The notes: generated by a model not told the origin, from the letters alone. A stretch of DNA of 64,000 bases from Candidatus Curtissbacteria bacterium (GCA_024654445.1 JANLHP010000017.1:33009-97008), one strand, 5' to 3'; positions 2,056-61,620 are shown, counted from the first letter of the stretch. Made by a program: numbers and translations.

Positions 2056-3504
2056 GTGAAACTCAAAAAGAATTTTGTTTTTCTGTGTGTGGTTTTAACG
2101 CTAGGGCTTTTTATGCGCCTTTCCCGGATTCGAGATTTTTATATTTTCGAAGCCGACCAGGAAATAAATTCTTTCATCGTCAAGGATATTTTTATTGATC
2201 ACCATATAAGGCTCATTGGGCAAATGAGCAGCATCGAAGGGATATTTCTTGGTCCACTACTTAATTATTTTCTTTCTCCTTTCTATGCAATTTTTGGTAT
2301 GGACCCAATTGGAGGAGTGGTTGCTGTTACTCTAATTTCCCTTGCAACAATTGCAAGCATATATTTTGTGTTTTCTGAATTTTTTGACACCGTAACTGCG
2401 AGGGTCGCTACTTTTCTGTATTCTGTTTCTCTTCCAATTGTGTTTATAGACAGATGGGTTGTCCCATCTCAAGGAGTTTTTCTTTGGTCTATTTGGTTTA
2501 TTTTTGCTTTACTTTCAATTCTTCGAGGCAATTTTAAAGCATTAATTTTGATTGGGCTTTTAGCTGGAGTTGCCTGGAATATTCACCCCACACTTGTGCC
2601 ATCATTGCTTCTAGTTCCTGTTGCTGTTTTCCTTTCTAGGAAAAAGCCACATCTTCGAGAAGTAATAATTTCGACTGCCATATTTTTAATTTCTTCACTA
2701 CCACTCTTGGCATTCGAAGCACGACATGGTTTTACTATGTTAAAAGCATTGGGGAAACTTTTTACTTCTTCTGATCCAGGGCTTCCTTTGGCACTGAAGT
2801 TAAACTTAGTCGTTTCGGGTTTTTCTTCCGTTGCAAGCAGAATCTTTTTCGAAGCCCATTTCCCGACTTTGGTAAATTTTGCTTCTCTGGTCTTGGTTGT
2901 CTGGTTTGTATACGCCAGAAAATTAATGGCCAAAAATCAATTTTCGATTATAGTAGGTTGGTTTTTATTAACTGTTGCTGCTCAGCTTTTTTCTAAGCGT
3001 GCAATCAGCGAATATTACTTTAATAATTTAATTATTCTTTCTCTTCTTCTTTTTAGCCTGACTCTTTCTTATTTACATAAAAAATCAAATAATCTATTGG
3101 TCCCAATACTACTTTCCTTGGTTTTAGTTTTTAACGTTTATTCACTTTTTTCTCGCGAAGAGAATAAATTTAATTACCTCTATAAAAAGCAGGTTGTGGA
3201 GTTTATTAAATCGGATTCGATGGCTCGTGGTTACCCGTGTATTGGCATAGATTACATCGCGGATTTTGGGAGAGCTGTTGGATTTCGTTACATTTTTTGG
3301 CAAAAGGGCCTTGTTGCCATTAAGCCGGATAGCGGTGCGCCTGTATACAAAATATTTATTCCCAGAGATGAATTGCCAGATGACGTGACCCCCCAATTTG
3401 GTAAATTAGGAGTAATAAGACCGGAAAGTGTAACTTTTAATAACACATCTGTTTGTACTGATCCCATAAATAATCTAGATTCTTTATGGGGGCTTACACT
3501 GTAG
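2056..3504 (+). CDS. GT-C fold membrane glycosyltransferase, family 39/83-like (PMT/ArnT-like)
   Basis: 482 aa, >10 predicted TM helices, GTG start, TAG stop followed 10 codons later by TAA; architecture typical of GT39 proteins. Confidence 0.5.
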   Translation: MKLKKNFVFLCVVLTLGLFMRLSRIRDFYIFEADQEINSFIVKDIFIDHHIRLIGQMSSIEGIFLGPLLNYFLSPFYAIFGMDPIGGVVAVTLISLATIASIYFVFSEFFDTVTARVATFLYSVSLPIVFIDRWVVPSQGVFLWSIWFIFALLSILRGNFKALILIGLLAGVAWNIHPTLVPSLLLVPVAVFLSRKKPHLREVIISTAIFLISSLPLLAFEARHGFTMLKALGKLFTSSDPGLPLALKLNLVVSGFSSVASRIFFEAHFPTLVNFASLVLVVWFVYARKLMAKNQFSIIVGWFLLTVAAQLFSKRAISEYYFNNLIILSLLLFSLTLSYLHKKSNNLLVPILLSLVLVFNVYSLFSREENKFNYLYKKQVVEFIKSDSMARGYPCIGIDYIADFGRAVGFRYIFWQKGLVAIKPDSGAPVYKIFIPRDELPDDVTPQFGKLGVIRPESVTFNNTSVCTDPINNLDSLWGLTL

Positions 3505-14646: not shown

Positions 14647-14736
14647 GTCATTCTGGAGACCGAAGGTCGATAGAATCTAAACGATTGAGATCCTATTCGT
14701 AGAAAAGCTCTGCTTATCGGTCGTTTCACTCCCTCC
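14647..14736. repeat. Palindromic intergenic repeat family R2, copy A (GTCATTCTGGAG...CGATAGAATCTA...CTCCAGGATGAC)
   Basis: Terminal inverted repeats gtcattctggag / ctccaggatgac; shared core with copies at 17146, 24477, 51897, 56146. Confidence 0.8.
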
Positions 14737-14748
14737 AGGATGACAGTT

Positions 14749-17145: not shown

Positions 17146-17208
17146 GTCATTCTGGAGACTGAAGGTCGATAGAATCTATTTGACCCTATCGCTTCGCTCC
17201 AGGGTGAC
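17146..17208. repeat. R2 palindromic repeat, copy B
   Basis: gtcattctggagactgaaggtcgatagaatcta...cgctccagggtgacgg. Confidence 0.8.
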
Positions 17209-24097: not shown

Positions 24098-25114
24098 CTA
24101 TTTGAAGTATATATCAGCTTTGTGTGTGATCGCAATTTTTTCATCTAGCTTATTTTCCCAACCTTTTTGACTGATATCGAAGAGTTCGATTGATTTAAAC
24201 TTATTAAACCAGGTTTTTTGTCGGCGGATAAGGCGGTGTAGGTCTCCTTTTGCAAGGTCGACTGATTCTTCTTTCGACGTTTTCCCTAAAATATAGTCTG
24301 CAAGACGCCTGTATTCCAAACCAAGCGAGTTAATCCATTCAGGGCTAATCCCGCCTTTTATTAGACTTTGAATTTCTTCAATCATTCCATGCTCAAGACG
24401 AGCCTTGAAGGATGCGTCGGCTCTTTTAAAAAGAAAATTATTAGGCGCGGTGAGACCGATGATGAGCACTTTTTCTGTCATCCTGGAGCGTAGTGGAACG
24501 GAGCGATGGGATCTAGATTCTATCGTGGTCGATGCCACTCCAGAATGACGACTTTTGCTTGGCGTCTCTATGGATACCTCTATAGCGCGGATGAGCCGGC
24601 GTGGATTTTTTCTGTCGGATTCGTTCATGGACTTTGCCTTTTGAGGATTTAGTTTTCCTAACTTTAGATAAAGCTCCTGCCTTGATAACTTTTCCAGTTT
24701 TGCGCGTAGTTTTTGGTCAGCTTTTATTCCTAGCGTGTCCATACCGTCCACAAGTGCTTTGATATAAAAACCTGTTCCCCCAACAACAATTGGCATTTTT
24801 TTCAGTTCAGTGATCTGAATTACTGAACTATTGGCGAATTTTAAAAAGTCTGCGACCGTGAATTGTTTGCCAGGTTCTATTAGATCGAAACCGCGGATTT
24901 TTACTCCGTCAACGATCCAATAACCGTTGTGTTTTTCAACCTTAGATTTAAAGCTTACTTTACCGGTTCCGATATCTAGACCTTTATAAACCTGTCGGGA
25001 GTCGGCAGAGATTAATTCACCGTTTGCACATTTGGCTAGTTTTATTCCAAGATCAGTTTTGCCGGTTGCCGTCGGACCATATAGTACCAACATCGTAGAT
25101 TTGCCAGTTTTCAT
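24098..25114 (-). CDS. miaA: tRNA dimethylallyltransferase; carries an in-frame 74-nt insertion of the R2 palindromic repeat
   Basis: P-loop GPTATGKT, SADSRQVYKGLDIGTGK; repeat at 24477-24550 translated as RHSGVASTTIESRSHRSVPLRSRMT between RAIEVSIETPSKS and EKVLIIGLTAPNN. Confidence 0.85.
   Translation of the reverse strand: MKTGKSTMLVLYGPTATGKTDLGIKLAKCANGELISADSRQVYKGLDIGTGKVSFKSKVEKHNGYWIVDGVKIRGFDLIEPGKQFTVADFLKFANSSVIQITELKKMPIVVGGTGFYIKALVDGMDTLGIKADQKLRAKLEKLSRQELYLKLGKLNPQKAKSMNESDRKNPRRLIRAIEVSIETPSKSRHSGVASTTIESRSHRSVPLRSRMTEKVLIIGLTAPNNFLFKRADASFKARLEHGMIEEIQSLIKGGISPEWINSLGLEYRRLADYILGKTSKEESVDLAKGDLHRLIRRQKTWFNKFKSIELFDISQKGWENKLDEKIAITHKADIYFK
24477..24550. repeat. R2 palindromic repeat, copy C (inverted relative to A/B), inside the miaA CDS in frame
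   Basis: gtcatcctggagcg...tagattctatcg...ctccagaatgacg. Confidence 0.8.
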
Positions 25115-28030: not shown

Positions 28031-28033
28031 ATA

Positions 28034-28129
28034 TTTAAGGAGACAACCTACGGTTTTCTCCTTAATATTCCTCTTTCCCTAAGAGGACAATTTTGAACTA
28101 GCAAAAGCTAGATTCAAAATTAATTTTAG
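28034..28129. repeat. Intergenic structured repeat family R1, copy 1 (between convergent gene ends)
   Basis: tttaaggagacaacctacggttttctccttaatattcctctttccctaagaggacaattttgaactagcaaaagctagattcaaaattaattttag; 6 copies in window. Confidence 0.85.
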
Positions 28130-37573: not shown

Positions 37574-37680
37574 ATTTAAGGGACAACCTACGGCCTGCCT
37601 GTCGGCAGACAGGTTTTCCCTTAATATTCCTTTTCCTTTAATGGACAAAATTAAACTGGCTAAGCCAGATTTAATTTTAG
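37574..37680. repeat. R1 repeat, copy 2 (with extra internal hairpin ctgtcggcagacag)
   Basis: tttaagggacaacctacggcctgcctgtcggcagacaggttttcccttaatattccttttcctttaatggacaaaattaaactggctaagccagatttaattttag. Confidence 0.85.
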
Positions 37681-37706
37681 ATTTTATGATAGCTCTTTCC
37701 ATAATT

Positions 37707-39229: not shown

Positions 39230-39234
39230 ACACT

Positions 39235-39328
39235 TTAAAGGGACACCTACGGTTTCCCTTTAATATTTCCTTTCTCTTTTAGTGGACGATTTTGTACTGG
39301 CAAAGCCAGATCCAAAATTAATTTTATA
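39235..39328. repeat. R1 repeat, copy 3 (between infA and rpmJ)
   Basis: tttaaagggacacctacggtttccctttaatatttcctttctcttttagtggacgattttgtactggcaaagccagatccaaaattaatttta. Confidence 0.8.
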
Positions 39329-43507: not shown

Positions 43508-44050
43508 TTATTGCGCAGTTTTGACTGCTTTGCCTGCCTTTCTTCTTACAATCTCACCGGCGTATTTGATACCTTTCCCTTTGTAAGGCTCAGGCGGTCT
43601 TACTCTTCTGATTTTAGCGGCTACTTCACCGACCAGAACTTTATCGGCGCCGCTTATTATTATTTTGTTTTCTTTGGCTTCGATATTTATACCTTTGATT
43701 TGTTCAAAGGTCACGGGATGCGAATATCCAATATTCAATACCAGACTCTCGCCTTGTTTTGCTGCGCGGTAACCAACACCAACGAGTTCCAAAACTTTTT
43801 CGTGCCCATCTGTTACACCCTTTACCATATTTGCAATAACGCTTCTGGTTAACCCGTGAAGAGATTTAGCAAATTTTGTTTCTGAAAGGCGATTTACGTC
43901 TACTTTCCCGTCATTCACATCGACTTTTATTTCTGGACGAATTTGGAATGACAATTCACCCTTTGGGCCCACTACGTTAATTTGAGAATCCATCACGGAA
44001 ACCGTAACGCCTTGTGGGATCGGTACTGGTTGTTTTCCTATCTTTGACAT
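43508..44050 (-). CDS. rplF: 50S ribosomal protein L6
   Basis: MSKIGKQPVPIPQGVTV. Confidence 0.95.
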   Translation of the reverse strand: MSKIGKQPVPIPQGVTVSVMDSQINVVGPKGELSFQIRPEIKVDVNDGKVDVNRLSETKFAKSLHGLTRSVIANMVKGVTDGHEKVLELVGVGYRAAKQGESLVLNIGYSHPVTFEQIKGINIEAKENKIIISGADKVLVGEVAAKIRRVRPPEPYKGKGIKYAGEIVRRKAGKAVKTAQ

Positions 44051-44110
44051 AATATGCTCCTTTCAGTCGCAAGAATCTCAAAGTTCAAAGTGCAAAGTTC
44101 AAAATTGAGG
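44051..44110. promoter_or_regulatory. Conserved leader motif R3 upstream of rplF (minus-strand sense TTTGAACTTTGCACTTTGAACTTTGAG...TGCGACTGAAAGGAGCA-ATG)
   Basis: Same 45-60 nt motif with SD GAAAGGAG recurs at 44547..44607 and 46880..46945. Confidence 0.6.
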
Positions 44111-44170
44111 AAGCCAAAAGATTTTTGGCTTTTTATTTTGATATTTGATATTTGATATTTGATATTTTTG
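44111..44170. repeat. Hairpin (gccaaaagatttttggc) followed by microsatellite (TTTGATA)x4-5
   Basis: gccaaaagatttttggctttttattttgatatttgatatttgatatttgatattttt. Confidence 0.8.
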
Positions 44171-44171
44171 G

Positions 44172-44546
44172 TTACCATACAATACATATCACTTCTCCCC
44201 CTAATTTTTTAGACCTTGCATCGCTTCCCGTCATAACACCTTGAGGTGTAGAAACAATTGTTATGCCTCTTCCGCCTTTTATAGACTTAATATCTTTGCT
44301 TTTTGTGTAAACTCTAAGACCTAATTTAGAGACTTTTTTGACTTCTTTTAACTTTGGTTTATTGTTTTCGTATAAGAGACCTACTTCGAGTTTAGTGTCT
44401 GTTTTTTGAACGCTAGCGATAAATTTACTTTTTTCTAAAACTTTAGCAATCTCAAATTTGAATTTTGAATGCGGCATAGAAACGGTTTGTTTCCGGGCCA
44501 TATAACCATTTTTTATCGCAACTAACATGTCTGCTATTGGATCCAC
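44172..44546 (-). CDS. rpsH: 30S ribosomal protein S8
   Basis: MDPIADMLVAIKNG. Confidence 0.95.
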   Translation of the reverse strand: MDPIADMLVAIKNGYMARKQTVSMPHSKFKFEIAKVLEKSKFIASVQKTDTKLEVGLLYENNKPKLKEVKKVSKLGLRVYTKSKDIKSIKGGRGITIVSTPQGVMTGSDARSKKLGGEVICIVW

Positions 44547-44607
44547 TGTTTTGCTCCTTTCTGTCGCAAAAATTTTAAATTTAAAATTTCAAATTTAAAG
44601 TTAATTA
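44547..44607. promoter_or_regulatory. R3 leader motif upstream of rpsH
   Basis: minus-sense ...TTTAAATTTGAAATTTTAAATTTAAAATTTTTGCGACAGAAAGGAGCAAAACA-ATG. Confidence 0.55.
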
Positions 44608-44793
44608 TTACCATGATGATTTTTTCACTCCTGGCACTTCTCCTTTATGAACAAGTTCCCTGAAACAAAGCCTGCACATACCAAATTTTCTTAGATAAGC
44701 CCTTGGCCTGCCGCATAGACGGCAACGGTTTCTGTGCCTTACTTCAAATTTCTGCTTTTTATCGTTTTTAATAACTTTAGATTTTCTTGCCAT
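44608..44793 (-). CDS. rpsN: 30S ribosomal protein S14 type Z (Zn-binding)
   Basis: [23 protein letters not shown]; 61 aa. Confidence 0.95.
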
Positions 44794-46471: not shown

Positions 46472-46879
46472 TTATCCTTTTGTTACTATTTTTGTCTTAA
46501 GTGGTAACTTATGAGCTGCAAGTCTCATTGCCTCCATGGCAACTTTTTCCTCTACTGCTCCCATTTCAAAAATGATTACTCCAGGTCTTACAACTGCAAC
46601 GTATTGGTCAACGTCACCTTTACCAGAACCCATACGGGTTTCTGCTGGCTTTTTGGTAACAGGTTTGTCTGGAAAAATCCTAATCCAAATACGCCCACCT
46701 CTTTTGGTATAGTGAGTCATTGCGCGCCTTGCCGCTTCAATTTGCCTGGCAGTCACCCAACCCGCCGCCTGACTTTTGAGTCCATATGAACCAAAGGCGA
46801 GGACGCTGCCTCTTATCGAGACGCCACCCATTTTCCCTCTAAATTGTTTCCTAAATTTTGCTCTTTTTGGCGCTAACAT
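46472..46879 (-). CDS. rplP: 50S ribosomal protein L16
   Basis: [17 protein letters not shown]. Confidence 0.95.
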
Positions 46880-46945
46880 GGTTTGCTCCTTTCAGTCGCA
46901 GAAAGTTTAAAGTTCAAAGTGCAAAGTTCAAAGTTAAGGAGGTTA
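46880..46945. promoter_or_regulatory. R3 leader motif upstream of rplP; followed (46990..47030) by tttgatttttgacttttgatttttgatg short tandem repeats
   Basis: minus-sense TTTGAACTTTGCACTTTGAACTTTAAACTTTCTGCGACTGAAAGGAGCAAACC-ATG. Confidence 0.6.
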
Positions 46946-48438: not shown

Positions 48439-48443
48439 TTTGA

Positions 48444-48539
48444 CTTTAAGGGCAAACCTAACGGTTTTCCCTTAATATTCCCTTTCCCTTTATTGGACAA
48501 ATTTGGACTGGCAAACCCAGATCCAAATTTTAATTTTAG
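48444..48539. repeat. R1 repeat, copy 4 (between rplB and rpsS)
   Basis: ctttaagggcaaacctaacggttttcccttaatattccctttccctttattggacaaatttggactggcaaacccagatccaaattttaattttag. Confidence 0.85.
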
Positions 48540-51896: not shown

Positions 51897-51953
51897 GTCA
51901 TCCTGAACTCGATTCAGGATCCAGATTCTATCGCTTCGCTCCAGAATGACAGT
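51897..51953. repeat. R2 palindromic repeat, copy D (tuf-rpsJ spacer)
   Basis: gtcatcctgaactcgattcaggatccagattctatcgcttcgctccagaatgacag. Confidence 0.8.
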
Positions 51954-56001: not shown

Positions 56002-56134
56002 TTTTAAGGGACAACCTAATAAGCAAAGCTTGCGGTCCTCGTCCTTCGGACTGCGGGCCTAACGGTTTTCCCTTAATATTCCCTTTCCCTTAATGGAGAA
56101 ATTTAAACTAGCAAAGCTAGATTTAAATTTCGAT
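56002..56134. repeat. R1 repeat, copy 5 (with extra internal UUCG-tetraloop hairpin gtccttcggac)
   Basis: ttttaagggacaacctaataagcaaagcttgcggtcctcgtccttcggactgcgggcctaacggttttcccttaatattccctttcccttaatggagaaatttaaactagcaaagctagatttaaattt. Confidence 0.85.
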
Positions 56135-56145
56135 TGTATTGCACT

Positions 56146-56199
56146 GTCATTCTGAATGAAATGAAGAATCTAGATCCTTCGCTGCGCTCAGGATGACAT
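56146..56199. repeat. R2 palindromic repeat, copy E
   Basis: gtcattctgaatgaaatgaagaatctagatccttcgctgcgctcaggatgacat. Confidence 0.75.
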
Positions 56200-61524: not shown

Positions 61525-61620
61525 CTTTAAGGAGACAACCTACGATTTTCTCCTTAATATTCCTCTTTCCCTAAAAAGATAATTTTAAACTGGCAAATCT
61601 AGATTTAAAATTCATTTTAG
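61525..61620. repeat. R1 repeat, copy 6 (between rpoB and rpoC)
   Basis: tttaaggagacaacctacgattttctccttaatattcctctttccctaaaaagataattttaaactggcaaatctagatttaaaattcattttag. Confidence 0.85.

What the first reader, a model, noticed from the sequence alone, without database searches (positions are those of the whole stretch)
24477..24550. R2 repeat inserted in frame inside miaA, adding ~25 residues to the protein
The miaA ORF (24098-25114) stays open through a complete R2 copy. Translated, the element reads RHSGVASTTIESRSHRSVPLRSRMT. It is wedged between ...RAIEVSIETPSKS and EKVLIIGLTAPNN.... In canonical MiaA this position is a surface linker after the conserved R-A-L-E-V helix. The element length (74 nt plus flank) preserves the reading frame. 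This mirrors the Rickettsia palindromic elements that colonise protein-coding genes without inactivating them. It is direct evidence that R2 is, or was, mobile. If copies are polymorphic it may also generate protein-level novelty.
Basis: partly seen in the sequence, partly recalled or inferred. Interest (0 to 1): 0.8.

Follow-up and report, generated by a model that had tools for sequence, protein, structure and literature searches.

The report
Palindromic repeat translated inside miaA
A 75-base hairpin-forming repeat sits in frame inside the tRNA-modification gene miaA of a Curtissbacteria (CPR) genome and adds a floppy 25-residue loop; it belongs to a known class of 'tagged' bacterial palindromic repeats (the class that also invades Rickettsia genes), but this family is unusually widespread across phyla and unusually constant in sequence.

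Summary
miaA (24098-25114, minus strand, 338 aa) reads through a complete R2 copy. With its tag bases the element spans 24476-24550, which is 75 nt or 25 codons (RHSG...SRMT). Only one of its six frames is open.

R2 is a head-to-head dimer of TGTC/CGTC-tagged REP hairpins. That class was described by Di Nocera et al. 2013 and includes Rickettsia RPE-4 and RPE-6. The AlphaFold model shows the insert as the only disordered segment, at the hinge between the helical domain and the core.

The interpretation needs correction on three points:
- The same composite dimer sits at the same site and in the same orientation in at least five other Curtissbacteria MiaAs that are only about 60-70% identical. 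These are scattered on the gene tree.
- Insert DNA is 89-96% identical between them, while the rest of the gene has saturated third codon positions (37-47%).
- The family is not CPR-specific. Near-identical elements occur in many phyla, and about 10% lie in frame in housekeeping genes.

Intergenic copies are absent from orthologous sites in relatives, which shows turnover and therefore mobility. Whether the miaA copy is one ancient insertion or a recurrent targeted one is unresolved. Verdict: a new member of a known kind.

The parts
24098..25114 (-). miaA (tRNA dimethylallyltransferase), 338 aa, intact. The true start may be M8, near 25093.
   Evidence: ORF. Pfam IPPT E=2.6e-46. PDB MiaA hits. 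It keeps all 36 columns that are invariant across 119 orthologues. AF2 mean pLDDT 87.5. Foldseek 2ZM5_A TM 0.80.
24476..24550 (-). R2 copy inside miaA. A head-to-head dimer of two tagged REP units, 75 nt = codons R189-T213 (RHSGVASTTIESRSHRSVPLRSRMT).
   Evidence: Disordered in the model, with pLDDT <50 at residues 187-207. 89-96% nt identity to the copies in five orthologues.
24516..24550 (-). Left unit on the mRNA strand: CGTC tag, ATTCT stem, G.T pair, tandem G.A, GTGG-CATCGA-CCAC hairpin, AGAAT, C.
   Evidence: Sequence. The left half folds as a hairpin at -10.4 kcal/mol as RNA. A unit differing at one base from this one (A for T in the loop) occurs at 6 distinct non-miaA sites in metagenomes.
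24514..24515 (-). TA joint between the two units. It is the centre of the conserved core AGAATC-TA-GATCC (TCTAGA).
24476..24513 (-). Right unit, inverted. On the + strand it reads TGTC tag, ATCCT stem ... GGGAT, C.
14647..14744 (+). Intergenic R2 copy (98 nt) filling the purP2-purB gap.
   Evidence: Absent at the orthologous site in L141-L144.
17146..17208 (+). Intergenic R2 copy (63 nt) filling the 78-nt purP-purA gap.
   Evidence: Absent at the orthologous site in L006 and L141-L144.
51897..51950 (-). Intergenic R2 copy (54 nt). Its first unit, GTCATCCTGAACTCGATTCAGGATC, is identical to a unit at a different locus in L144.
56146..56197 (+). Intergenic R2 copy (52 nt), the most canonical form of the cross-phylum family.

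Best explanation
The segment is a non-autonomous palindromic DNA element: a head-to-head dimer of two TGTC/CGTC-tagged REP hairpins.

Anatomy. Each unit has five parts:
- a tag, (T/C)GTC;
- a 5-bp stem, ATTCT/AGAAT on one side and ATCCT/AGGAT on the other;
- tandem G.A pairs;
- a variable G+C stem with a GAA-type loop;
- a short tail.
The two tails meet at a TCTAGA centre.

Shown:
- The element lies in the part of miaA that encodes the hinge between the helical tRNA-clamping domain and the P-loop core.
- It is read through in the only stop-free frame.
- It is predicted to form a disordered 25-residue loop.
- Every invariant MiaA residue is retained.

Inferred:
- Such elements move in trans, through single-stranded hairpin intermediates, without making a target-site duplication. 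The enzyme is unidentified.
- They land in many places. Within essential or useful genes, only in-frame, stop-free copies at permissive loops survive.
- The very high nucleotide conservation of the miaA copy is a property of the element family. Its hairpins and recognition sequences are held constant everywhere, either by continuing activity from conserved master units or by structural constraint. It is not a property of the encoded peptide.
For: Identity and anatomy:
- Five copies in the window share termini and core.
- 113 distinct elements from many phyla show the same architecture.
- The variable stems are hairpins in about 70% of elements against about 10% of shuffles.
- Position -1 is T in 83% and C in 12% of elements. 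Position +1 is A in 81% and G in 12%. There is no target-site duplication.
- The T-A versus C-G difference between the left and right 5-bp stems is consistent across elements, which fits folding within each unit.

Class:
- The anatomy matches the published definition of CGTC-tagged REPs. That definition includes dimers with tags on the outside, intragenic dimers encoding 20-30 aa, and peptides framed RH..G...MT.
- Only one RAYT-like gene was found in 1.08 Mb of flanking DNA, and it is not flanked by these units.

Tolerated loop:
- The AF2 model's only disordered stretch coincides with the insert.
- The fold matches MiaA-tRNA complexes.
- The linker varies from about 14 aa to more than 90 aa among orthologues, and in other lineages it holds other hairpin-forming DNA.

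Generality:
- In-frame copies occur in atpG, ValRS (two per gene), ksgA, holA, a polyprenyl synthase, a class-V aminotransferase and a P-type ATPase.

Mobility and family-level constancy:
- Both purine-operon intergenic copies are absent at orthologous sites in five relatives.
- Identical units occur at non-orthologous sites in other genomes.

Not peptide selection:
- Third codon positions of the insert are 88-96% identical, against 37-47% in the rest of the gene.
- The substitutions seen include S/T, H/Y/C and P/S.
Against: - No mobilising enzyme was identified. Only 64 kb of this genome was examined.
- The same composite dimer (same left unit, same right unit, no spacer, same orientation, same right-hand junction two codons before the beta-strand) is present in six MiaA lineages. 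Free copies with the same left unit have other right halves and spacers.
- If the miaA copy is a single old insertion, element-level activity does not by itself explain why a resident copy stayed about 92% identical while synonymous sites saturated. That would point to selection at this locus, or to some form of homogenisation.
- Translation of the insert and activity of the enzyme are inferred, not measured.
Confidence: 0.6

Rival explanations
1. Single ancient insertion kept by selection on the nucleic acid. R2 entered miaA once in an early Curtissbacteria ancestor and was lost repeatedly. Where it was kept, it is held almost unchanged because the DNA or mRNA hairpin does something at this locus. 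Examples would be a protein-binding or RNase site, translational pausing at a domain boundary, or mRNA stability.
For: - Same composite dimer, site and orientation in six lineages.
- Identity is 0.92-0.96 inside the arms and falls to 0.26 (left) and 0.56 (right) immediately outside.
- Third codon positions are 88-96% identical against 37-47% in the rest of the gene.
- L001 and L005 carry secondary in-frame internal insertions, which suggests long residence.
- L006, the nearest relative of L005, has AGTCAT-N7-ATGAT at the site, like a collapsed element.
- Two ValRS genes at 45% aa identity carry inserts at the same two positions, and insert 2 differs at about 5 of 54 nt by my hand alignment of the sequences.
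- The mRNA strand can form a 14-bp stem at -23.6 kcal/mol.
Against: - The insert-bearing MiaAs are not monophyletic (0/100 bootstraps), and each has closer relatives without the insert. Many losses of a supposedly selected element would therefore be needed.
- Intergenic copies show no such persistence.
- Unit sequences are just as constant at non-orthologous sites, so constancy does not require a function at this locus.
- No Rfam family matches.
Confidence: 0.25
2. Recurrent site-specific insertion. The same active master dimer has inserted independently, and fairly recently, into the same spot of miaA in several lineages. The hinge-coding DNA would be a preferred target, for example a hairpin-rich landing pad.
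For: - Patchy distribution on the MiaA tree.
- Turnover of intergenic copies at the same divergence.
- Identical units in different genomes at different loci.
- The same linker holds other hairpin-forming inserts in other lineages (L139, L140).
- Conservation stops abruptly at the element ends.
Against: - No conserved target motif appears in the flanks of 113 elements beyond the tag bases.
- The miaA-type composite (this right half, with no spacer) was not seen outside miaA among the 10 metagenome matches to the left unit.
- The left-hand junction differs in each lineage.
Confidence: 0.13
3. The segment is an ancestral MiaA protein feature, or the gene is a pseudogene or an assembly artefact.
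For: Orthologues in other Curtissbacteria carry the same peptide. All cross-phylum hits from the genome scan are MAGs.
Against: - Most Curtissbacteria MiaAs and all solved MiaAs lack the segment.
- Its DNA is a member of a dispersed repeat family.
- It appears, with sequence differences, in six independent assemblies from NCBI, ENA, JGI and Logan.
- Units occur in cultured cyanobacteria.
- Host loci span 30-62% GC.
- The ORF is intact and keeps all invariant residues.
Confidence: 0.02

Closest known systems
CGTC-tagged REPs (Di Nocera, De Gregorio & Rocco 2013, BMC Genomics 14:522; PMC3733652)
   Same: - Unpaired tag CGTC, often TGTC.
- Stem beginning with complementary A-T pairs, a short loop and a short C-rich tail.
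- Mostly dimers with the tags on the outside.
- Sited between co-directional genes.
- Intragenic dimers encode 20-30 aa in translation, tRNA-modification and repair genes, with peptides framed like RH.GG...AGMT.
- No dedicated transposase.

   Different: - The unit sequence is different: ATTCT-GA-stem-GAA-stem-GA-AGAAT against, for example, ATTCCCGC-GAAA-GCGGGAAT.
- The stem is interrupted by tandem G.A pairs, and the variable inner stem can be long.
- None of the paper's listed peptides matches VILS../CHSE...
- The paper lists 5 phyla and no CPR, Firmicutes, Chloroflexota, Omnitrophota or Cyanobacteria for CGTC types. This family occurs in all of them.
Rickettsia palindromic elements (RPE; Ogata et al. 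2000; RPE-4/RPE-6 = CGTC-4/CGTC-1 according to PMC3733652)
   Same: Palindromic repeats inserted in frame in housekeeping genes without inactivating them, and encoding surface or loop segments. The same superfamily tag is present.
   Different: - RPEs are confined to Rickettsia and have other sequences. From my own knowledge, RPE-1 is about 100-150 bp.
- Here the family crosses phyla.
- The same insert persists, or recurs, in orthologues whose synonymous sites are saturated.
REPIN-RAYT systems (Bertels & Rainey 2011; PMC3116915)
   Same: Two inverted REP hairpins act as one unit, are non-autonomous, occur in many copies per genome, and mostly lie in intergenic sites within operons.
   Different: - REPINs carry GTAG tags.
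- REPINs are tied to a single-copy RAYT gene flanked by REPs.
- REPs are described as species-specific in sequence, and REPIN-RAYT systems as mostly vertically inherited.
- Here there is no GTAG tag, no RAYT association in 1.08 Mb, and near-identical sequence across phyla.
MITEs such as Correia/NEMIS or Nezha
   Same: Short, with terminal inverted repeats, non-coding, sometimes co-transcribed or translated.
   Different: No target-site duplication and no parent insertion sequence with matching ends was seen. The unit is a single REP-like hairpin that also occurs alone.

Membership tests
CGTC/TGTC-tagged REP superfamily (PMC3733652) | [quoted passage not shown] | tested here: met
   The miaA copy has CGTC on the mRNA strand and TGTC on the other strand. 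Among 113 family members position -1 is T in 83% and C in 12%, followed by GTC.
CGTC/TGTC-tagged REP superfamily (PMC3733652) | Stem of 8-9 bp whose first two positions are complementary A-T pairs; loop of 4-5 nt | tested here: inconclusive
   The stem starts AT...AT (ATTCT/AGAAT), and the canonical unit has 9 stacked positions. Two of those are G.A pairs, and the loop is GAA (3 nt). The miaA unit has an extra G.T pair, a 4-bp inner stem and a 6-nt loop.
CGTC/TGTC-tagged REP superfamily (PMC3733652) | Short unpaired tail, consensus CCA | tested here: met
   The tail is C+TA in most copies and CCA in the copy at 51897-51950.
CGTC/TGTC-tagged REP superfamily (PMC3733652) | Predominantly head-to-head dimers (tags outside) | tested here: met
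   All 5 window copies and all 113 sampled elements have the tags outside. The search pattern itself required this for the sampled set.
CGTC/TGTC-tagged REP superfamily (PMC3733652) | No transposase gene flanked by the units | tested here: met
   tblastn with four RAYT sequences over 1.08 Mb gave one hit (L053), which is flanked by a different repeat. The rest of this genome was not examined.
CGTC/TGTC-tagged REP superfamily (PMC3733652) | Belongs to one of the four defined families CGTC-1 to CGTC-4 | not testable with these tools
   The Figure 2 consensus sequences are not held. The listed CGTC peptides (VIPAKAGI, CHSRESGNP..AGMT..RFRGND) differ from VILSEAKDL/CHSERSEES/RHSGVA, which suggests a further family.
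REPIN-RAYT | GTAG tag and a cognate RAYT gene flanked by the REPs | tested here: not met
   There is no GTAG tag and no RAYT association.
REPIN-RAYT | Species-specific REP sequence, vertical inheritance | tested here: not met
   Near-identical elements occur in hosts of 30-62% GC from many phyla.
MITE | Terminal inverted repeats plus a target-site duplication | tested here: not met
   Terminal inverted repeats are present, but no duplication appears in the flanks of 113 elements.
Rickettsia palindromic elements | In-frame residence in protein-coding genes without inactivation | tested here: met
   miaA is intact. Seven other host genes were confirmed by Pfam.
Rickettsia palindromic elements | Sequence similarity to RPE consensus sequences | not tested
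   No RPE consensus was available. The link rests on the paper's statement that RPE-4 and RPE-6 are CGTC-4 and CGTC-1.
MiaA / IPPT (PF01715) | IPPT domain, P-loop and conserved catalytic motifs, MiaA fold | tested here: met
   Pfam E=2.6e-46. All invariant columns are kept. Foldseek gives 2ZM5_A TM 0.80.

The most novel reading that the evidence does not exclude
This TGTC-tagged hairpin dimer is a pan-bacterial element whose sequence is held nearly constant across phyla by an undiscovered, widely conserved trans-acting partner. Copies embedded at hinge or loop positions of essential genes (miaA, ValRS and others) would then arise in one of two ways. Either they are kept at the nucleotide level over very deep divergence as working cis-elements, or they are delivered there repeatedly by a site-specific, hairpin-targeting mechanism. 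Either way they would be more than passively tolerated junk.
Probability: 0.3. Interest if true: 0.8.

Novelty: new member of a known kind. Interest (0 to 1): 0.55.

Why it matters
Intragenic REP and RPE insertions are known, so the bare finding extends a known phenomenon to CPR bacteria.

The conservation pattern is more notable, for three reasons:
[quoted passage not shown] This family keeps about 40 of its roughly 52 core bases the same in hosts from 30 to 62% GC.
- A copy inside miaA is the most DNA-conserved part of that gene.
- The ValRS pair points the same way, on a smaller and hand-aligned comparison.

If the cause is a conserved partner protein or a targeting mechanism, the family offers two things. 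One is a tractable route to the unresolved question of how tag-bearing REPs without a transposase move; units occur in cultured Planktothrix and Calothrix. The other is a natural marker of permissive insertion sites in essential enzymes of organisms that cannot yet be grown.

Tried and rejected
- Rfam. The gathering-threshold scan of the window and permissive scans of two copies gave only a tRNA and noise. The element is therefore not a described RNA family.
- Literature search for the sequence strings and the encoded peptides gave only primers, vectors or irrelevant hits.
- Exhaustive search of protein representatives with the 30-aa insert gave two hits. The one I inspected (P0122) is an unrelated tandem-repeat protein; P0121 was not examined.
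A composite 72-aa query of the four open frames gave 12 weak short ORFs. Neither could count intragenic copies.
- Phage and plasmid BLAST found half-units only, no full dimer and no informative annotation.
- I first took the inner hairpin GTGGCAACGACCAC to be specific to the miaA copy, and so proof of orthology. I rejected this after the metagenome scan found it at six other sites.
- I first took the five insert-bearing MiaAs to be the closest relatives. I rejected this because their rank was inflated by the shared insert.
- Hammerhead-like, K-turn and attC readings of the tandem G.A motif were considered from memory and dropped, because the required conserved bases are absent.

Full report
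**1. The observation**

The window is from a Candidatus Curtissbacteria MAG. The miaA product is 100% identical to an NCBI protein on a 268-kb contig.

The ORF 24098-25114 on the minus strand is open for 338 aa. It reads ...RAIEVSIETPSKS-RHSGVASTTIESRSHRSVPLRSRMT-EKVLIIGLTAPNN.... It is MiaA: Pfam IPPT matches at E=2.6e-46, and the best solved relatives are B. halodurans, S. epidermidis and E. coli MiaA.

The palindrome GTCAT...ATGAC occupies 24477-24549. With one more base on each side it is 75 nt, which is exactly the 25 inserted codons.

Four more copies lie at 14647-14744, 17146-17208, 51897-51950 and 56146-56197. They share the termini GTCATYCTGRR / YYCAGRATGAC and the centre AGAATCTAGATCC. 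All four are intergenic and nearly fill the gaps between co-directional genes. The terminal motif is far more frequent than in shuffled sequence. By my hand reading of the sequence, only one of the element's six frames lacks a stop codon, and it is the frame miaA uses.

**2. What the element is**

The hits come from:
- Curtiss-, Levy-, Davies-, Berkel-, Kerfeld-, Chisholm- and Saccharibacteria, WWE3 and other Patescibacteria;
- Clostridia, Desulfotomaculum, Syntrophomonas and Desulfobacterota;
- Rickettsiales, Micavibrio and Gammaproteobacteria;
- Omnitrophota, Anaerolineales, Dehalococcoidia and Chloroflexia;
- Bacteroidales, Planctomycetia and Binatia.

The right halves were not part of the pattern, yet they are equally conserved. 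The shared architecture is (T)GTCATTCTGA-[stem-loop]-GAAGAATC-TA-GATCCTTC-[stem-loop]-TCAGGATGAC(A).

Several features define the structure:
- The two variable segments are hairpins in about 70% of 113 distinct elements, against about 10% of shuffles, and they use dozens of different sequences.
- The left 5-bp stem is ATTCT/AGAAT and the right one is ATCCT/AGGAT. So each half pairs within itself: 5 bp, tandem G.A, a G+C stem and a GAA loop.
- Position -1 is T (83%) or C (12%), and position +1 is A (81%) or G (12%). There is no target-site duplication.

The cross-phylum spread is not a binning artefact. Host loci range from 30 to 62% GC. Single units also occur in cultured Planktothrix, Calothrix and Gloeothece plasmids, and they are translated in frame in a Planktothrix MmeI-type gene. 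Rfam has no matching family.

**3. Comparison with the literature**

Di Nocera et al. 2013 (PMC3733652) define CGTC-tagged REPs by these features:
- a CGTC or TGTC tag;
- stems that begin with A-T pairs;
- short loops and a CCA-like tail;
- mostly dimers with the tags outside;
- no dedicated transposase.

They identify Rickettsia RPE-4 and RPE-6 and Neisseria dRS3 as members. They also list intragenic dimers encoding 20-30 aa in aminoacyl-tRNA synthetases, TruB, KsgA, QueA and repair genes. One published dimer peptide, RHAGGGRHLG...PASAGMT, is framed exactly like RHSGVAST...LRSRMT.

R2 meets the tag, tail, dimer and no-transposase criteria. The stem and loop dimensions fit only loosely. Its unit sequence and peptides are not among those listed, and its host phyla go beyond the five in the paper. 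One RAYT-like gene was found in 1.08 Mb of window plus loci, and it is flanked by a different repeat. No paper in the library connects REPs with CPR bacteria. I therefore file R2 as a new member, probably a new family, of a known kind.

**4. The protein**

An AlphaFold model built from 119 orthologues is confident, with mean pLDDT 87.5 and pTM 0.81. The exception is residues 184-214, where pLDDT falls below 50 at 187-207. That stretch lies between helix 171-183 and strand 215-222, and the insert is residues 189-213. The model superposes on the E. coli MiaA-tRNA complexes (2ZM5_A TM 0.80). All 36 invariant columns of the family are retained.

**5. The insert in other genomes**

Five other MiaAs (P0002, P0003, P0004, P0006, P0007) carry the same peptide at the same place. 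Their loci come from NCBI, ENA, JGI and Logan assemblies and are syntenic, with miaA followed by an AI-2E transporter gene.

The six copies compare as follows:
- They are the same composite dimer in the same orientation. The right junction always lies two codons before the beta-strand. L001 and L005 have extra in-frame internal insertions.
- Insert DNA is 89-96% identical between lineages, and 88-96% at third codon positions. The rest of the gene is 60-69% identical, with third positions at 37-47%.
- Identity is 0.92-0.96 inside the arms and drops to 0.26 (left) and 0.56 (right) immediately outside.
- The substitutions seen are not preferentially synonymous.

With the linker removed, the six proteins are not a clade (0/100 bootstraps). 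Each has closer relatives without the insert, for example P0007-P0010 at 72% and P0006-P0055 at 79%. Their high rank was partly due to the insert itself. L006 (P0010) has AGTCAT-N7-ATGAT at the site, which may be the footprint of a deleted element.

**6. Is the constancy special to miaA?**

No. Four observations show it is a family-wide property:
- The left unit of the miaA copies occurs with identical sequence at six other intergenic sites in metagenomes, joined to different spacers and right halves.
- A unit of the window copy at 51897 is identical to one at an unrelated locus in L144.
- Two ValRS genes at 45% aa identity carry inserts at the same two positions. By my hand alignment of the sequences, insert 2 differs at about 5 of 54 nt, and its inner-stem changes preserve pairing.
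- The two intergenic copies in the purine operon are absent from the orthologous sites of five relatives whose purA is 67-70% identical.

So occupancy turns over while the unit sequence stays fixed. This is the clearest evidence here that the family is or was mobile. It also shows that sequence constancy is a family property.

**7. The linker is a recurrent home for hairpin DNA**

Among 119 orthologues the linker between RAIEV and the next beta-strand runs from about 14 aa to more than 90 aa. In L139 it holds a duplicated palindrome, and in L140 it holds inverted heptamer arrays. Both fold better than shuffles, at z = -1.7 and -2.7. This fits a permissive site that filters insertions. It would equally fit a hairpin-rich target.

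**8. Mechanism and what remains open**

Shown:
- the anatomy of the element;
- in-frame read-through, a disordered loop and an intact enzyme fold;
- membership of a cross-phylum tagged-REP family;
- turnover of intergenic copies;
- element-limited nucleotide conservation.

Inferred:
- movement through single-stranded hairpin intermediates using an enzyme supplied in trans;
- survival only of stop-free, in-frame copies at permissive loops;
- neutrality of the peptide.

Open: whether the miaA copy is one ancient insertion kept almost unchanged, or a repeatedly delivered master dimer. The first requires selection on the nucleic acid, or some form of homogenisation. The second requires site- and orientation-specific targeting. 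The data contain points for each, and I could not separate them with the sequence available.

**9. Verdict**

- The bare phenomenon is known from Rickettsia and other bacteria.
- The family, its presence in CPR bacteria, its cross-phylum constancy, and the finding that the insert is the most DNA-conserved part of miaA are not in the literature I could search.

Noticed in passing
L054 and L064 (ValRS genes of two Patescibacteria MAGs): Both ValRS genes, 45% identical in protein, carry two family inserts at the same two positions: after RIPAW(F/Y), and between the catalytic and anticodon-binding domains. By hand alignment, insert 2 differs at about 5 of 54 nt with pairing-preserving stem changes. 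Insert 1 appears to be in the opposite orientation in the two genes.
   Followed up: partly
L127 (Planktothrix agardhii No.66 plasmid p1, NZ_LR882964.1, locus 2880-3100 and 1200-1400): A cultured cyanobacterium has several related units and spaced dimers translated in frame inside an annotated MmeI-type restriction-modification gene (...VILSETKDLSGVV...SSQAQND...).
   Followed up: partly
window 28033-28126, 39232-39325, 48443-48536, 61525-61618, 37599-37687, 56051-56139: A second intergenic repeat family of about 90 nt. It has the hairpin TTAAGGGA...TCCCTTAA, then CCTTTCC, then a second hairpin (ACTGGCAAAGCCAGAT). The copy at 56051-56139 abuts the R2 copy at 56146-56197.
   Followed up: no
window 44047-44111, 44544-44608, 46876-46940: A third repeat family containing CAAAGTTCAAAGTGCAAAGTTCAAA-type short periodic motifs next to GCTCCTTTCAGTCGCA.
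   Followed up: no
L139 10500-10700 and L140 10500-10640 (miaA linkers of other Curtissbacteria): The same MiaA linker holds other hairpin-forming DNA. L139 has a duplicated palindrome CACCTCCGAGG...CCTCGGAGGTG (peptide TSEESKPTSEV, twice). L140 has four AAGTATC repeats facing three AAATACT repeats (peptide KKYQVSSIKYQ...).
   Followed up: partly
L003 and L004 (miaA, about codons 80-100): These two MiaAs carry a further 15-residue insert (PPIHKPDSQSYSKPGSEE) after DLVNP. L004 is identical to L003 in its N-terminal part but diverged in its C-terminal part, so it is either a recombinant or an assembly chimera. L004 and L139 come from the same ENA assembly.
   Followed up: no
L006 about 2150-2200 (miaA linker of P0010): The sequence ACT AGT CAT ATG CTA AAT GAT TAC (TSHMLNDY) looks like the two outer termini of R2 with the interior deleted. 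This may be an excision or deletion footprint.
   Followed up: partly
L053 4448-4807 (Omnitrophota MAG): The only RAYT-like (Y1 transposase) gene found near any element. It is flanked by GGGGxCATGTCCCC repeats, not by TGTC-tagged units.
   Followed up: partly
window 25053-25114: The annotated miaA start (25114) overlaps the end of the upstream 547-aa membrane-protein ORF by 62 nt. Orthologues begin near the eighth codon (MLVLYGPTATGKT), so the real start is probably about 25093.
   Followed up: no
L144 5922-6000 and 11389-11447; L141 1595-1761: Orthologous purine-operon gaps that lack R2 hold other repeats. L144 has a GGTAAGTTCTC...TCGAACAATAA element, present twice in that locus and once next to an R2 unit. 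L141 has a 167-nt AT-rich palindrome.
   Followed up: no
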